64,000 nt of DNA from Escherichia coli (GTDB taxonomy: Bacteria; Pseudomonadota; Gammaproteobacteria; Enterobacterales; Enterobacteriaceae), in NCBI RefSeq assembly GCF_024298765.1, contig NZ_CP101210.1, one strand, 5' to 3'. The position numbers are program-made. This document shows positions 24,001 through 30,000 of this stretch, in pieces. The first letter of the stretch is position 1; each line of letters begins with the position of its first letter.

Positions 24001-27000
24001 GCTTCAACGGCCTGGCTGCGAAAGTACAGACGGCGCTGAAAGACGATCCCATATCCGGCCATGTTTTCATTTTCCGGGGCCGCAGCGGCAGTCAGGTTAA
24101 ACTGCTGTGGTCCACCGGTGACGGGCTGTGCCTCCTGACCAAGCGGCTGGAGCGTGGGCGCTTCGCCTGGCCGTCAGCCCGTGATGGCAAAGTGTTCCTT
24201 ACGCAGGCGCAGCTGGCGATGCTGCTGGAAGGTATCGACTGGCGACAGCCTAAGCGGCTGCTGACCTCCCTGACCATGCTGTAAATCTCTTTATCCTGGT
24301 TGTCACAGAATAAGCCCGGTAAAATACGGGCTTATGAACGACATCTCTTGTAAGCGTCAACGGAGCACCGTATTGACGCTTATTTATTGGTGAGTACTAC
24401 GTTCCATGGCAGGAGTTCGTCAACACAGTTGGAGGGCCATTCCGGCAGTACGCTCAGAATATGGCGCAGATACGCTTCCGGATCGATACCGTTCAGACGG
24501 CAGGTGCCGATCAGCCCGTACAGCAGTGCTCCACGCTCGCCGCCGTGATCGCTACCGAAGAACACGTAATTTTTCTTTCCGAGACAGACTGCACGAAGCG
24601 CTCTTTCCGCTGTGTTATTGTCCGCTTCTGCCAAACCATCATCACTGTAATAACAGAGGGCGTCCCACTGATTCAGTACATAGCTGAACGCTTCGCCCAG
24701 TCTGGATTTTTTCGACAGCGTGCCATTCTTCTCCACCATCCATTCATGCAGCGACGTCAGTAACGCTTTGCTTCGCTGCTGCCTGGCTGCAAGACGCTCT
24801 GACTCTGGTAATCCCCGTATTTCATCCTCGATGGCGTACAGTTCACTGATTCGCTTCAGGGCTTCTTCTGCCGTCGCACTTTTGCTGCTGATGTATACAT
24901 CGTGGATTTTTCGCCGGGCATGGGCCCAGCACGCAACTTCTGTCAGTGCACCACCTTCACGTTCTGCACTGAACAACCTGTCGTAACCTGTGAACGCATC
25001 CGCCTGCAGGATACCCCGGAAGGGGCGAAGGTGTTGCTCCGGGTGTTTCCCCTGCCGGTTCGGCGAGTACGCGAACCAGACCGCTGGAGGAGATGACGAA
25101 CCCACATTGCGATCATCCCGGACATACGTCCAGATACGCCCTGTTTTCGCCTTTTTCTGACCCGGTGCCAGTACCTTTACCGGTGTGTCATCAGTGTGAA
25201 CCTTGCGGGTATTCATTACATAACGGTACAGGGCATCATTCACCGGTGTCATTAACTGGCAGCACGCGTCAACCCAGTTGGAGAGTAAGGCCCGGCTCAG
25301 TTCGACACCCTGGCGGGCAAAGATTTCACTCTGACGATACAGTGGCAGATGTTCGCAGTATTTTCCCGTTAACACGCGGGCAAGTAATCCGGGGCCCGCG
25401 ATACCACGCTCTATCGGGCGGGACGGCGCCGGTGCTTCAACAATACAGTCACATTTTGTACAGGCTTTTTTTACCCGTTCTGTGCGGATCACTTTCAGGG
25501 CACTGCTCACCAGTTCCAGCTGTTCAGCGCTGACTTCCCCCAGATAATCCAGCTCACCGCCACACTCCGGGCAACAGCTTTCTTCTGGCTCCAGGCGGTG
25601 TATTTCACGGGGAAGGTGTGCCGGTAACGGACGACGATGGCGCGACTGTCGCAACTGGCGGGGAACCTGAGGATCGTCTTCCCGCCCACTGTAACGATCG
25701 CTGTCCTGTTCACGTTGTTTCAGCAGAGCCTCAGCCAGTTCAACTTCACGACGCAGTTTTTCAGAACGGGTACCGAACAGCATCCGGTGCAGTTTTTCTA
25801 TCTGAGCCCGCAGATGTTCTATTTCCCGTTCATCTTCTTCGATCTTTTCTTCGGCACGTGCCAGTGCAGAGCGCAGGAAGGCCTCCGTCTCTTCAACCAG
25901 ACTCAGTTGCTGGTCTTTCTGACGGAGCTGGCTTTCCAGTTCTGCAATGCGAATGAGGTATTTCTGACTCATGGCCGTTTTTATAATGCGGCCAGGCGTT
26001 TTTTACAACATTGTCAGTGCGTTAAGGCGGAATGTTTTTGGCTGACGCCAGTCCAGCTTATCGAGGAGCATTGCCAGTTGCGAGCGGGTAATGGATACCT
26101 TGCCGTCACGTACCGCAGGCCAGATAAACTGGCCTTCCTCCAGGCGTTTGGTGAACAGGCACAGACCATCAGCATCAGCCCAAAGAATTTTAACGGTGTC
26201 ACCCCGTCGGCCACGGAAGATAAACAGGTGACCGGAGAAGGGATTATCATTCAGCACATGTTGTACCTGTTCTCCCAGTCCGTTGAAGGATTTACGCATA
26301 TCGGTAACGCCGGCAACGAGCCAGATACGGGTACCTGATGGGAGTGAGATCATCTTCCCCTCCCGGTCAGTTCACGGATCAACACCGTGAGCAGCTCTGG
26401 CGATGGATTTTCCAGCGTCATGTTACCGTGACGGAATTCCACCTTGCAGGAACTGGCACTGACTCTGGTCTGAGTGGAAGTGGATAAAGACGGCGCAATG
26501 GCCGCCACAGGTTCTTTCTGCTCATCCGGCGTTATTTCTACAGGTAATAATTCAACGCCAGTGTCAGAAGAGGTCGTTACCGGAAGACGCCGCGAAACAC
26601 GCCCTTCGTTCTGCCAGAGCCTGAGCCATTTGAAAATAACATTATCATTGACGCCATTTTCACGTGCAATCTGTGCAACACAAGCTCCAGGTTGTGATGC
26701 CAGTTCCACCATACGAAGTTTGAATTCATTCGAATAGTTTTTACGAGGTTCTTTTCGCCAGTCCTGTAATTCCATACTTAGATGTCCGTCTATATCAGAT
26801 GGGCGTCTAAGTTACCAATTCTCGTCTGATGGCTACATACGGCGGTCAGTTTACGCTTACCTTTATCCCGACAGACGACGTATATTTACCAGTAAGGCCA
26901 ACCCGGTTGCGCCCTTTGAACCAGAAGTCAAACGTCAGGCTGTCATGGCACTCTGTACACGACAAGTATCAGCCAGTGAAATCGCCAGGCGTATTGGTGT

Positions 27001-30000
27001 CAGTCGTGCGGTATTGTATAAATGGAAAGATAAAATTATCGGCAACAGTGCTTACCAGACTATGCGTAAACATAACGAACCTTCCCTGGAGGCAGAACGC
27101 GATGCGTTGCGGGAGGAAGTCGCCCGACTGAATCAGGAAATACGCCGCCGGCAGATGGAGCTGGATATTCTGAAAAAGGCGGAGGAAATCATAAAAAAAG
27201 ACCCGGGCATCAGTATCAGTCACCTGAACAACAGAGAGAAAACGAAGATCGCTGATGCCCTGAGACAAACATATCCCCTGACAGAATTACTGCATGTTCT
27301 GGGCCTTGCCCGTAGCAGTTATTTTTATCACCGGGCTGCACTGAAAGCCGGTGATAAATACGCCACGATACGTACGATGCTGACAGATATATTTAACAGT
27401 AATTACCAGTGTTATGGCTATCGTCGCCTGCATGCGATGCTCAGGCATGAGGGGGGGCGGCTATCAGAAAAGGTTGTACGCAGACTTATGGTGGAAGAAC
27501 AGCTTGTCGTCAGCCGTAACCGTCGTCGCCGCTACAGCTCATATTGCGGAGAAATCGGACCGGCTCCGGATAACCTTATCGCCAGAGATTTTAAGGCGGA
27601 GCAACCTAATCAGAAATGGCTGACAGATATCACGGAGTTCCACCTCCCTGCAGGTAAAGTCTGGCTATCATCGGTGGTGGACTGCTTCGATGGAAAAGTT
27701 GTGAGCTGGTCTCTCAGTACACGCCCCGATGCTGAACTGGTCAACACTATGCTGGATAGCGCTGTCGAAACGTTAAATGCTGGCGAACGACCGGTGATAC
27801 ACAGTGACAGAGGTGGGCATTATCGCTGGTCAGGCTGGCTGGAAAGAGTGAATGCAGAAGGTCTTATTCGCTCAATGTCCCGCAAAGGATGTTCACCTGA
27901 TAATGCGGCATGCGAAGGCTTTTTCGGCAGACTGAAAACGGAAATGTATCATGGGCGTAAATGGTCGGGCATCACGCCAGAAAAGTTCATGCAGCAAGTG
28001 GATACTTACATCAGATGGTATAACGAGCGGCGTATAAAATTATCGCCGGGTGCAGTCAGCCCCAAAATGTACCGCCAACAATGCGGGCTGGAATGATAAA
28101 GCAGTCCAGGAAATCGTCCGCATCCCCAGAACGGTCAAACATCGTGGCGTTGACAACGGGTTCCTGAGTCCGGTGAAGCGCCGGTTACTGGAAAATGTTG
28201 TGTACGTCATAACAGAAACGGAGAGAAAAACGGCGATGCAAATCAGGCGGAGAAGGGTGTATCAGCGGTTACTGAAGGTTGACCCGCTGAAGTGCATCCT
28301 GTGCGGAGGTCAGATGCGGTTTACGGGGCTGAAGCGGGGCTACCGTCTGGCAGAGCTGGTCATGATGCATGAGCCACTGGCACGACAGCGGGTATACAGC
28401 TGAGAGCCGCAGAGGGGAAGTTGCGTCCATTTTTTGAGGAATGGAGCAAAAAATCATCACAGATATAAAAAATCAATCAATGAAAGCCATTTAATTGCCG
28501 GTGCATTGTGGATGCAGTCCTCATGGTACGTAACCAGAGTTGAATAAACATCCATTTTTTTGTGTTTTTTTAACCTCCCCGGGTTTTTAATTCCTGTCGA
28601 TTAAAAGTGTTAGATTATTTGGTTAAGAGTTCTCTCGTCCTATTTATTCAGGCGTTATCACGGATATGCAGATCGCTAAGTCAGTTGTAAGAAAACCAGA
28701 CAGTGCACATCATTATACCTAGGTCTTCTCTGGAAAAATACTTAGGAATAATTTATGTAAAACAGGTTGTCGTCTTCATGATTTAAACGCAGTACATATA
28801 TATACTCTATAATAAATACAGGGAGTATCACGAGACGTCTGGATAAGAGGAATAACCAGAATAAATTGGTAAGGAATAAAGACACTTATTTCTATTGAGA
28901 AAAAACATTCATCCTGATGTGATTAGTATCAATGAAATAATGTGCTTGTATGGTTGATAAAAAATGCATCACTAAAGAAAAAACAGTATGAATAAGAATA
29001 TACGAATTTTACAATTTCTGGTCAGTATACTTTATTCTGTGCAGTCTCATTTTTCTGGTGCGCAAACAATACAACTGAATGGTAATGGTATACCTGAAAG
29101 TATAACCAGGAGTATTACAGGTGTTGATGGAAACGCGGCGCTTAATATCAGCGTGCCGTATAAAACAAGTTATACTCAAAATATACTATCTGTTGAAAGC
29201 AGTATTAACATCAAAGGAGGAACAAGCAATACATCAATCGGTGGTGCAGGTGTCTACGGTGAAAACTTTACGCTAAATAATAATGGTAGTGTTTGGGGAG
29301 GAGATGGATATAATGGTGGAATTGCTGTTAGTGGCAACAAAATATCTATAAACAATTACAGAAATGTATATGGGGGTAATGGTCTTGGTGGCTCAGGAAG
29401 TAGCGGAGGTGCAGGGTTAAGCGGGGATGATATTATAGTTGATAATTACAGAAGTATATACGGAGGTGATGATGTAGGTGGGACAGGTGGTTCCGGTGTA
29501 ACCGGTAGCAATATTACAGTGCATAATTCCGGAGGAATATTGGGCGGTAATGGCGTAAACGGTGGTGATGGTATTAATGGTAGTAATCTTTTCATTACTA
29601 ACGACAACATGATATCTGGAGGATATGGAATAAAACAAGGGGGAGATGCTATTTCTGGAAATCAAATCACTTTGAATAATAACGGTATTGTTCAGGGGGG
29701 ATATGGCCCCGACGGTGGTTGCTCTGTTTATGGAGAAGATATCCATATTAATAATCATGGTAATCTTTCAGGATTATATAATAGCCAAAAAGATGCTTAT
29801 AATACATCAATAATTTTTTCTGGCGGGTATAATTCATTAGATATTTATTCAGATTCTGTGATTAATGGTGATATTAAACTAGCTAGTATACCTGTTAATG
29901 GTACAAATGAATTAATTATTAAAAACATCAATAACGCAACAGCAATTAATGGTGGGCTAATGATTGGGAATGGCTCATCTGTTTATCTGTCAGGCAAGAA

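What the first reader, a model, noticed from the sequence alone, without database searches (positions are those of the whole stretch)
26861..28403. IS3-family transposase truncated by IS66 insertion, with orfA-orfB in a single frame, followed by an unassigned CxxC ORF
The open frame begins exactly at the IS66 copy 3 boundary and reads through an OrfA-like HTH into a DDE integrase core without the usual -1 frameshift. This shows the order of events (IS3-like element first, IS66 later). The overlapping 117-aa ORF (28050..28403) with a CxxC motif could be a further transposase fragment.
Basis: seen in the sequence. Interest (0 to 1): 0.25.

Follow-up and report, generated by a model that had tools for sequence, protein, structure and literature searches.

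The report
Truncated IS3 element beside IS66
This is the right-hand three quarters of a common E. coli IS3-family insertion sequence, cut off by an IS66 element and followed by a scrap of an IS91 transposase gene upstream of the aatA adhesin gene; it is ordinary, already-annotated debris, but its family keeps a frameshift signal inside a transposase gene that no longer needs one.

Summary
Window 26861-28096 encodes residues 100-510 of a 510-aa IS3-family transposase. It is 100% identical to an intact plasmid copy and abuts the intact terminus of an IS66-family element at 26860/26861. NCBI's PGAP annotation pipeline already marks it as an N-terminally truncated pseudogene.

- **The CxxC ORF.** It is not a gene. 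Codons 37-115 are the C-terminal tail of an IS91-family transposase (90% identity). Its first 36 codons read out of frame across the IS3 end.
- **The missing part.** The first 367 bp of the IS3 element are nowhere in the window. The flanking IS66 copy has no target duplication, so a deletion or recombination followed or accompanied the IS66 arrival.
- **The single frame.** It is not a local mutation. In 79 of 88 related loci from many bacterial groups the transposase is one ORF of about 510 codons.
- **A retained frameshift cassette.** 86 of the 88 loci keep an in-phase A_AAA_AAA/G slippery heptamer. An 11-bp stem supported by covariation follows 5 nt downstream, and the -1 frame stops about 18 codons later. 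This points to a dnaX-like frameshift that makes a truncated OrfA-like protein. That step is inferred, not shown, and I found no description of it.

The locus itself is ordinary.

The parts
24350..26860 (-). IS66-family element 'copy 3' (ISEc23/ISEc47-like). It is complete, with tnpC 24380-25972, tnpB 26003-26353 and tnpA 26350-26775. Its tnpA-side terminus abuts the IS3 remnant.
   Evidence: GTAAGCG termini at both ends. Pfam finds DDE_Tnp_IS66, TnpB_IS66 and HTH_Tnp_1. Flanks are CATCTCTT and CTTTATCC, so there is no target duplication. The names come from PGAP features under 94-96% identical matches.
26861..28155 (+). Remnant of a 1662-bp IS3-family insertion sequence, corresponding to positions 368-1662 of the intact element. 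The left inverted repeat, the promoter region and codons 1-99 are missing.
   Evidence: 100% identical to L002 6001-7295 of plasmid pF1022-2. The ends of the intact element come from recurrent match limits in many contexts and a 4-bp duplication GAGT in L004.
26861..28096 (+). Transposase pseudogene: residues 100-510 of the 510-aa single-ORF transposase. The DDE residues are intact: D355 at 27626-27628, D415 at 27806-27808 and E451 at 27914-27916.
   Evidence: tblastn gives 100% identity over residues 100-510. NF033516 scores 378.9 bits. The catalytic residues are invariant in alignment A1. PGAP annotates a pseudogene at the same coordinates.
27193..27199 (+). In-phase slippery heptamer A_AAA_AAA at codons I210-K211-K212, the junction between the OrfA-like and OrfB-like parts.
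   Evidence: Present as A_AAA_AAA or A_AAA_AAG in 86 of 88 related loci. Lys is AAA in 171 of 176 site codons against 36% elsewhere. The preceding I/L/V codon ends in A in 88 of 88 loci against 11% elsewhere.
27205..27260 (+). Stem-loop starting 5 nt after the heptamer. The arms are 27205-27215 and 27250-27260 and the loop is 34 nt. The -1 frame stop TGA at 27253-27255 lies in the 3' arm.
   Evidence: RNAalifold consensus. On 84 sequences 97.8% of cells are paired and 7 of 11 pairs show compensatory change; 0 of 500 shuffles reach this, and slid controls pair at most 51%. The window copy folds at -19.7 kcal/mol, z = -3.4. Coordinates were verified.
28103..28155 (+). Right inverted repeat of the IS3 element. 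The inner 26 bp (28103-28128) match the left end of the intact copy perfectly. The outer 27 bp (28129-28155) match imperfectly and end ...TGACA.
   Evidence: blastn finds the inverted 26-mer. The outer limit recurs in unrelated contexts, and IS91 homology resumes at 28153-28156.
28156..28604 (+). Remnant of an IS91-family element: the last 81 codons of its transposase gene (28158-28403) plus about 200 bp of its 3' non-coding end.
   Evidence: 85% DNA identity to L006 2501-2941. BLASTP gives 90% identity to residues 315-393 of a 395-aa IS91-family transposase that has the Zn_Tnp_IS91 and Y2_Tnp domains. PGAP annotates a pseudogene at 28158-28403.
28050..28403 (+). Codons 1-36 are an out-of-frame read across the IS3 transposase 3' end and right repeat. 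Only codons 37-117 are IS91-derived.
   Evidence: The BLASTP alignment starts at residue 37. No Pfam or NCBIfam hit.

Best explanation
The region is inert mobile-element debris upstream of the aatA autotransporter gene in an APEC/ExPEC-type E. coli chromosomal island.

History of the locus:
- A 1662-bp IS3-family element (IS150-like) sat against a truncated IS91-family element. The same module, with the IS3 element intact, is found on plasmids next to aatA.
- An ISEc23/47-like IS66 element then came to abut codon 100 of the IS3 transposase gene.
- The first 367 bp of the IS3 element were lost by deletion or recombination.
- What remains has only a right end and no start, so it cannot transpose or make a full transposase. 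This last point is inferred from the anatomy.

The single reading frame:
- It is native. This element belongs to a widespread IS3-family clade whose full transposase (about 510 aa) is encoded in frame 0. It comprises two HTH regions, a coiled coil and a DD(35)E core.
- The clade nevertheless retains, at the OrfA/OrfB junction, a slippery heptamer and a downstream hairpin of the kind that drives -1 frameshifting in IS150 and other IS3 members.
- The most likely reading (inferred, about 0.65) is inverted, dnaX-like logic. Normal translation gives the transposase. A -1 slip gives a 230-aa OrfA-like protein (212 + 18 residues) that would regulate transposition.
For: The locus:
- The window is 100% identical to E. 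coli chromosomes, including APEC IMT5155. The IS66/IS3 junction is present in 236 records.
- PGAP annotates both fragments as partial pseudogenes.
- Plasmid copies match from 26861 onwards and carry an intact 510-aa ORF.
- Residues 100-510 are 100% identical to the plasmid copy, and the N-terminal part has no match anywhere in the window.
- The IS91 assignment rests.
- Dai et al. 2010 (PMC2944236) already describe IS2-like and IS91 sequences 5' of aatA.

The native single frame:
- Nearly all of the 120 best homologues listed are 505-515 aa and cover the whole query.
- 79 of 88 loci have an in-frame ORF of at least 495 codons.

The recoding cassette:
- The -1 frame stops after 18 codons in 67 of 88 loci, range 4-25.
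- IS150's frameshift site has the same architecture. It has a heptamer, a 6-nt spacer and a 10-bp stem around a loop of about 28 nt. Its 3' arm falls at the homologous protein position.
- Sharma et al. 2014 list IS150 as a proven case.
Against: - No experiment or expression data. The frameshift product is inferred only.
- A_AAA_AAA is less shift-prone than A_AAA_AAG in E. coli (Sharma et al. 2014).
- An A7 run could instead support transcriptional slippage (IS1447 work).
- The right end of the element is ambiguous, at 28128 or 28155. A chromosomal ST131 copy (L003) carries only the inner 1606-bp unit, and several assemblies hold contigs of about 1600 bp.
- No target duplication and no reciprocal junction was found, so the exact event that removed the 5' part cannot be reconstructed.
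Confidence: 0.85

Rival explanations
1. The single frame is a local accident: a 1-nt insertion in the A-run of an ordinary two-ORF IS3 element, as in laboratory fused-frame OrfAB mutants, confined to this copy or to E. coli.
For: The A-run length does vary among E. coli copies: A6 in L098 (annotated 'frameshifted') and A10 in L004.
Against: 79 of 88 loci carry the same single ORF. They come from Enterobacterales, Pseudomonas, Burkholderiales, Rhizobiales, Acidobacteria and Firmicutes, at 49-97% protein identity. 82 have A7 in the same phase.
Confidence: 0.03
2. The heptamer and hairpin are kept for a reason other than making a second protein. They might serve as a translational pause that helps co-translational folding and cis-action of the transposase. 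They might also be a relic under weak constraint.
For: A frameshift-associated pause has been proposed to underlie cis preference in IS911 (Atkins et al. 2016 review). No product has been observed here.
Against: A pause needs the hairpin but not a phase-correct slippery heptamer. Yet the third base of a variable I/L/V codon is A in 88 of 88 loci. AAA is used in 97% of the site's Lys codons, even in hosts that prefer AAG. Both alternative frames close quickly.
Confidence: 0.15
3. The truncated protein is made by transcriptional slippage of RNA polymerase on the A7 run, not by ribosomal frameshifting.
For: Slippage in the IS3-family element IS1447 requires a run of seven A. The +1 frame here is also closed after about 8 codons, so either kind of indel would truncate the protein.
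Against: The conserved hairpin 5 nt downstream is the ribosomal stimulator geometry (rules in Sharma et al. 2014). Four loci have A_AAA_AAG, which keeps a ribosomal shift site but shortens the run to A6.
Confidence: 0.15
4. The 117-aa CxxC ORF (28050-28403) is a functional small zinc-binding protein gene.
For: It is an open frame with a GTG start and a CxxC motif.
Against: Residues 37-115 are 90% identical to the C-terminal tail of an IS91-family transposase. The homology continues as DNA beyond the stop into the IS91 non-coding end. Residues 1-36 overlap the IS3 transposase 3' end and inverted repeat. There are no family hits.
Confidence: 0.02

Closest known systems
IS150 (IS3 family, IS150 group; E. 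coli K-12 insJ/insK)
   Same: - The OrfAB fusion aligns over almost the full length, including the DD(35)E core.
- The elements are of similar size (1443 and 1662 bp), and the 1662-bp element has TG...CA ends as IS3-family members do.
- The frameshift cassette has the same design: an A-rich heptamer at the end of the coiled coil, a 5-6-nt spacer, and a 10-11-bp stem around a loop of 28-34 nt. The 3' arm falls at the homologous protein position.
   Different: - In IS150, orfB is in the -1 frame, so frameshifting is needed to make the transposase and normal translation gives OrfA.
- Here the transposase is in frame 0, and the -1 frame ends after 18 codons.
- The N-terminal DNA-binding part is about 40 residues longer here.
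dnaX of E. coli (tau and gamma subunits)
   Same: The long product comes from frame 0. A -1 shift on an A-rich heptamer followed by a hairpin leads to a nearby stop and a truncated product that shares the N-terminus (description).
   Different: It is an unrelated protein. dnaX uses A_AAA_AAG with an upstream Shine-Dalgarno-like stimulator and shifts at about 50%. Here the efficiency is unknown and an upstream SD-like sequence is not conserved.
Engineered fused-frame OrfAB of IS911 and other IS3 members (from my own knowledge of the IS911 literature, not checked here)
   Same: One extra base in the A-run puts orfA and orfB in one frame, so the transposase is made constitutively.
   Different: Those are laboratory constructs. 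Here the fused frame is natural, widespread and conserved, and it keeps the frameshift signals.
IS91 family (rolling-circle HUH/Y2 transposases)
   Same: The 28158-28403 remnant is 90% identical to residues 315-393 of a 395-aa protein with Zn_Tnp_IS91 and Y2_Tnp domains.
   Different: Only the tail after the Y2_Tnp domain survives. No catalytic or N-terminal zinc-binding part is present.
ISEc23 / ISEc47 (IS66 family)
   Same: The flanking copy 3 has the tnpA-tnpB-tnpC organisation and GTAAGCG termini. It is 94-96% identical to sequences PGAP names ISEc23 or ISEc47 family.
   Different: This copy lacks the 8-bp target duplication expected of a simple IS66-family insertion.

Membership tests
IS3 family | Transposase matching the curated IS3-family model, with an rve (DDE integrase) core | tested here: met
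   NF033516 scores 378.9 bits against a cut-off of 160. Pfam finds rve, rve_2 and HTH_21.
IS3 family | DD(35)E triad with K/R seven residues after E | tested here: met
   D355, D415, E451 and K458 are invariant in 14 diverse homologues. The codons are intact in the window.
IS3 family | Terminal inverted repeats beginning 5'-TG and ending CA-3' | tested here: met
   The intact copy L002 has TGTCA...TGACA outer ends and a perfect 26-bp inner repeat TGGGG...CCCCA. The window keeps only the right end.
IS3 family | 3-4 bp target-site duplication | tested here: inconclusive
   A 4-bp duplication GAGT flanks the 1662-bp unit in L004. No clear duplication is seen in L002, L003 or L097, and the test cannot be made in the truncated window copy.
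IS3 family | orfA and orfB in phases 0 and -1, with the transposase made by programmed -1 frameshifting | tested here: not met
   The transposase is one continuous frame in the window, in the intact copy and in 79 of 88 relatives. The slippery heptamer and hairpin are present, but a -1 shift leads to a stop. This is the usual arrangement of the family, not part of the curated protein definition.
IS150 group of the IS3 family | Closer to IS150 OrfAB than to other subgroups | not tested
   Only IS150 was aligned. No comparison with the IS2, IS3, IS51 or IS407 groups was made, and no ISfinder search was possible.
IS91 family | N-terminal zinc-binding domain and Y2 (HUH) transposase domain | tested here: not met
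   The window fragment aligns only to residues 315-393, after the Y2_Tnp domain (residues 142-321 of the reference), and has no Pfam hit of its own. It is a remnant of a member, not a member.
IS91 family | Sequence continuity with a bona fide element, including its non-coding end | tested here: met
   85% DNA identity over 452 bp to L006, running past the stop codon.
IS66 family (flanking copy 3) | tnpA, tnpB and tnpC genes, GTAAGCG-type termini and an 8-bp duplication | tested here: inconclusive
   The genes and termini are present. The duplication is absent: CATCTCTT against CTTTATCC. Neighbouring copy 1 does have one, AAAGATAT.
Programmed -1 ribosomal frameshift site | In-phase X_XXY_YYZ heptamer conserved beyond what coding requires | tested here: met
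   Found in 86 of 88 loci, with codon-usage contrasts of 97% against 36% and 100% against 11%.
Programmed -1 ribosomal frameshift site | Downstream structure 4-10 nt after the motif, supported by covariation | tested here: met
   An 11-bp stem after a 5-nt spacer. 7 of 11 pairs show compensatory change and 0 of 500 shuffles reach the observed values.
Programmed -1 ribosomal frameshift site | A frameshift product is actually made | not testable with these tools
   Needs protein or ribosome-profiling data.

The most novel reading that the evidence does not exclude
A widespread clade of IS3-family elements has inverted the family's classic recoding logic. The transposase is encoded in frame 0. 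The conserved A_AAA_AAA heptamer plus hairpin drives a dnaX-like -1 frameshift whose product is a truncated OrfA-like regulator. The frameshift would then set the regulator-to-transposase ratio from the opposite side. This arrangement has not been described.
Probability: 0.35. Interest if true: 0.5.

Novelty: already known. Interest (0 to 1): 0.25.

Why it matters
For the window itself it matters little. It settles the annotation:
- two pseudogene fragments and no hidden gene;
- an order of events for the IS pile upstream of the aatA virulence gene;
- a link between the chromosomal aatA locus and the plasmid form of the same module.

The wider point concerns the IS3 family, the textbook case of programmed -1 frameshifting, where the shift makes the transposase. 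Here a large, taxonomically broad clade encodes the transposase directly but still conserves the shift site and its stimulatory hairpin at the nucleotide level. If the shift is productive, the same cassette is used to make the regulator instead of the enzyme. That bears on how transposition rate is set.

It also affects annotation. In one E. coli copy of this element PGAP labelled a mutational frame break as a 'programmed frameshift'. No tool would predict the short product.

Tried and rejected
- **Looking for the missing 5' part on the other side of the IS66 nest.** blastn and tblastn of the first 367 bp (99 aa) against the whole window found nothing. The HTH fragment at 23249-23395 that PGAP annotates there is the N-terminus of yet another IS66-family TnpA, not the IS3 OrfA part.
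- **Searching for the reciprocal junction.** I searched 5,426 E. coli genomes and 72,556 plasmids for the IS3 5' part plus CTTTATCC joined to the other end of IS66 copy 3. The few full-coverage hits are two separate pieces. In CP024249.1 the nesting is reversed, with the IS3 element inside an IS66 element.
- **The 8-mer CTTTATCC at 24289-24296.** It looked like a possible duplicate of the junction sequence, but its context is IS66, not IS3, so I take it as chance.
- **Naming the element.** PGAP and the protein collection call it only 'IS3 family transposase'.
- **Literature search for in-frame IS3 members with a frameshift signal.** Seven searches and six papers read gave nothing, and one further paper could not be fetched. 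The Fayet and Prere 2010 book chapter and the ISfinder/TnPedia pages are not held, so prior description cannot be excluded.
- **Rfam.** No family matches the hairpin.
- **A PGAP 'programmed frameshift' on copy L097.** This looked at first like a classical two-ORF variant. It is a mutational break near residue 417, with the A7 run intact.

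
Full report
**What is at the coordinates**

Window 26861-28096 is one uninterrupted frame of 411 codons plus a stop. It has an HTH_Tnp_1 region, an HTH_21 region and an rve/rve_2 integrase core. It scores 378.9 bits against NCBIfam NF033516 'IS3 family transposase' (cut-off 160), as a single stretch over profile positions 13-369 of 369.

One detail is off. The stop-to-stop frame runs back to 26738, inside the neighbouring IS66 end, and the first in-frame ATG is at 26945. It is the homology, not the open frame, that starts at 26861.

**Origin and existing annotation**

The 2-kb stretch 26700-28700 is 100% identical to many E. coli chromosomes, including APEC IMT5155. 236 records contain the same IS66/IS3 junction. 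In IMT5155, PGAP annotates window 26861-28096 as 'IS3 family transposase, incomplete, missing N-terminus' and 28158-28403 as 'IS91 family transposase, incomplete, missing N-terminus'. The 1165-aa autotransporter gene follows at 28988-32485, then IS1 and fecIRABCDE. Dai et al. 2010 (PMC2944236) sequenced this locus. They named the gene aatA and reported IS2-like and IS91-like sequences 5' of it. The locus is therefore known and annotated.

**The junction and the intact element**

An IS66-type terminus (reverse complement GTAAGCGTAAACTGACC...) ends at 26860. Plasmid matches begin exactly at 26861. Plasmid pF1022-2 (locus L002) carries the same IS3-IS91-aatA module, with an intact 1533-nt ORF of 510 aa. 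The window is identical to it from 26861 to at least 28700, so it holds residues 100-510.

The intact element has a perfect 26-bp inverted repeat, TGGGGATGCGGACGATTTCCTGGACT. Imperfectly repeated segments of 27-29 bp lie outside it, and those segments end TGTCA...TGACA. The match limits at these outer ends recur in unrelated contexts. One copy (L004) has a 4-bp duplication GAGT around the 1662-bp unit. IS91 homology in the window resumes at 28153-28156.

I therefore place the right end at 28155. Some doubt remains. A chromosomal ST131 copy (L003) has only the inner 1606-bp unit, and some assemblies hold contigs of about 1600 bp. Several distant relatives also have long two-part repeats and lengths of 1650-1677 bp.

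**The missing 5' part and the order of events**

The first 367 bp of the element (left repeat, leader and codons 1-99) have no match anywhere in the window, by blastn or by tblastn. The IS66 pile to the left is as follows.

| Piece | Coordinates | Strand | Notes |
|---|---|---|---|
| Copy 0 (fragment) | 20438-20543 + 23243-23394 | + | Split by copy 1 |
| Copy 1 | 20544-23242 | - | 8-bp duplication AAAGATAT |
| IS66-end fragment | 23395-23467 | n/a | 73 bp |
| Copy 2 | 23468-24349 | + | tnpA and tnpB only; cut 16 nt into tnpC |
| Copy 3 | 24350-26860 | - | Complete |

Copy 3 is flanked by CATCTCTT and CTTTATCC, so it has no duplication. At least one of its junctions was therefore made by deletion, intramolecular transposition or recombination between IS66 copies.

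The reciprocal junction was not found as a contiguous sequence in 5,426 E. coli genomes or 72,556 plasmids. The order 'IS3 first, IS66 later' is nevertheless supported. The IS66 end is whole, the IS3 element is cut, and the plasmid form keeps the IS3 element intact. The remnant has no left end, no start codon region and no first HTH, so it cannot move or make transposase. This is inference from the anatomy.

**The CxxC ORF**

Residues 37-115 of the 117-aa ORF are 90% identical to residues 315-393 of a 395-aa IS91-family transposase. That protein has Zn_Tnp_IS91 (residues 17-104) and Y2_Tnp (residues 142-321) domains. The DNA homology (85% over 452 bp) continues past the stop into the IS91 non-coding end, to about 28604. 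Codons 1-36 overlap the IS3 transposase 3' end and right repeat in another frame. The ORF is thus a chance fusion, and only the tail of an IS91 transposase gene is real. The fragment has no domain hit of its own.

**Why the transposase is in one frame**

This is not a mutation of this copy.
- A search of the protein collection returned 5,996 relatives with E of 1e-10 or better. Nearly all of the 120 best listed are 505-515 aa, cover the full query, and reach down to 55% identity.
- A scan of one genome per species gave 80 further loci. They come from Enterobacterales, Pseudomonas, many Burkholderiales, Rhizobiales, Rhodobacter, Granulicella and Acetobacterium, and from assorted metagenome-assembled genomes (MAGs), down to 49% identity.
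- Of the 88 loci examined, 79 have an in-frame ORF of at least 495 codons.
- The catalytic D355, D415, E451 and K458 are invariant.
- IS150 OrfAB aligns along most of the protein, so the element looks IS150-like. I did not compare other IS3 subgroups.

**A retained frameshift cassette (found in passing, followed up)**

At the OrfA/OrfB junction the window reads ATA AAA AAA (27191-27199). This is an in-phase A_AAA_AAA heptamer at 27193-27199.

The heptamer across the 88 loci:
- It is A_AAA_AAA in 82 loci and A_AAA_AAG in 4.
- The two Lys codons are AAA in 171 of 176 cases, against 36% AAA for Lys elsewhere in the same genes.
- The preceding codon encodes I, L or V but always ends in A (ATA 37, CTA 23, TTA 21, GTA 7). 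Only 11% of I/L/V codons elsewhere end in A.
- This holds in hosts with gene G+C of 0.39-0.62. It is selection on the nucleotides, not on the protein.

The hairpin:
- Five nucleotides downstream an 11-bp stem (window 27205-27215 with 27250-27260) closes a 34-nt loop.
- RNAalifold predicts it from nine sequences.
- On 84 distinct sequences 97.8% of cells pair and 7 of 11 pairs show compensatory change. There are 72 double-change cells against 20.5 +/- 9.8 in shuffles, and 0 of 500 shuffles reach any measure. Sliding one arm drops pairing to 51% or less.
- One example is ATC paired with GAT (40 sequences), GTC with GAC (32) and GTC with GAT (12, a G-U pair). ATC never occurs with GAC.
- The window copy folds at -19.7 kcal/mol, z = -3.4.

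What a shift would give:
- The -1 frame ends after 18 codons in 67 of 88 loci (range 4-25). The stop is a TGA inside the 3' arm, at window 27253-27255.
- The +1 frame ends after about 8 codons.

Comparison with IS150:
- IS150 has a frameshift listed as proven by Sharma et al. 2014.
- It has the same layout: A_AAA_AAG, a 6-nt spacer, and a 10-bp stem around a loop of about 28 nt.
- Its 3' arm falls at the homologous protein position.
- No Rfam family matches the hairpin.

**Mechanism proposed**

Shown:
- the transposase is in frame 0;
- the heptamer and hairpin are conserved beyond what coding requires;
- any shift truncates the protein.

Inferred:
- a fraction of ribosomes slip -1 and produce a 230-aa protein (212 + 18 residues);
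- that protein carries the DNA-binding and coiled-coil parts, the equivalent of OrfA, which in IS911-type elements modulates transposition;
- the logic is that of dnaX, and the reverse of IS150.

Rivals are a pause-only role for the cassette and transcriptional slippage on A7. The hairpin geometry and the four A_AAA_AAG variants favour the ribosomal route.

I found no description of this in the papers I could search or read. The E. coli IS clusters of Sharma et al. 2014 do not include this element.

**Verdict**

The finding is correct and ordinary: already-annotated IS debris. The suggested check, looking for the 5' part across the nest, comes back negative.

The single frame is the one feature with wider interest, and only through what it reveals about the element's clade. 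I score interest at 0.25. The most novel reading not excluded is inverted frameshift logic, real and undescribed. I give it a probability of about 0.35, and it would deserve about 0.5 if true.

Noticed in passing
window 27193-27260; loci L002, L004, L007-L094: An in-phase A_AAA_AAA/G heptamer plus a covarying 11-bp stem is conserved in a clade of single-ORF IS3-family transposases. The -1 frame stops about 18 codons later.
   Followed up: yes
window 20438-26860: Anatomy of the IS66 pile. Copy 1 (20544-23242) has the duplication AAAGATAT and splits an older IS66 fragment (20438-20543 + 23243-23394). A 73-bp IS66 end lies at 23395-23467. Copy 2 (23468-24349) is cut 16 nt into tnpC. Copy 3 (24350-26860) has no duplication. 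Further GTAAGCG ends lie at 20387 and 20438.
   Followed up: partly
L002 5634-5688 and 7243-7295; L003 1500-3105; window 28103-28155: The IS3 element has two-tier ends: a perfect inner 26-bp repeat and an imperfect outer segment of 27-29 bp. The ST131 chromosomal copy (L003) has only the inner unit, abutting an IS66 tnpA fragment and a lactate permease fragment. Which pair of ends is cleaved is unexplained.
   Followed up: partly
L097 344-1875 (NZ_HG994850.1): PGAP labels this copy 'programmed frameshift'. Its A-run is the normal A7, and the frame break is a mutation near residue 417 in the catalytic core. The label looks like an annotation artefact.
   Followed up: yes
L004 2199-2208; L098 about 972: The A-run length varies among E. 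coli copies. L004 has A10 (residue 213 is K instead of D). L098 has A6, which puts the orfB part out of frame and is annotated 'frameshifted'.
   Followed up: partly
L096 4001-7723 (plasmid CP024249.1): Reverse nesting: a nearly complete copy of the IS3 element is inserted inside an ISEc23/47-like IS66 element, between its positions 242 and 272.
   Followed up: partly
window 11111-12441 and 16325-17300: A second stretch shared with plasmid pF1022-2 (L002 1834-3164, 95.6% identity) overlaps a gene annotated as a phytase-like esterase. A weaker inverted match (about 70%) lies at 16325-17300, under a DDE-integrase pseudogene. More than the aatA module may be shared between the island and the plasmid.
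   Followed up: no
L035 (contig assigned to a Collinsella MAG): A 1189-bp contig carries a 96%-identical copy of the E. coli element that breaks off exactly at the heptamer position. It is probably contamination or a chimeric contig in the MAG.
   Followed up: no
window 24289-24296: The 8-mer CTTTATCC, identical to the first 8 bp of the IS3 remnant, occurs just after tnpB of IS66 copy 2. The surrounding sequence is not IS3, so I take it as chance.
   Followed up: yes
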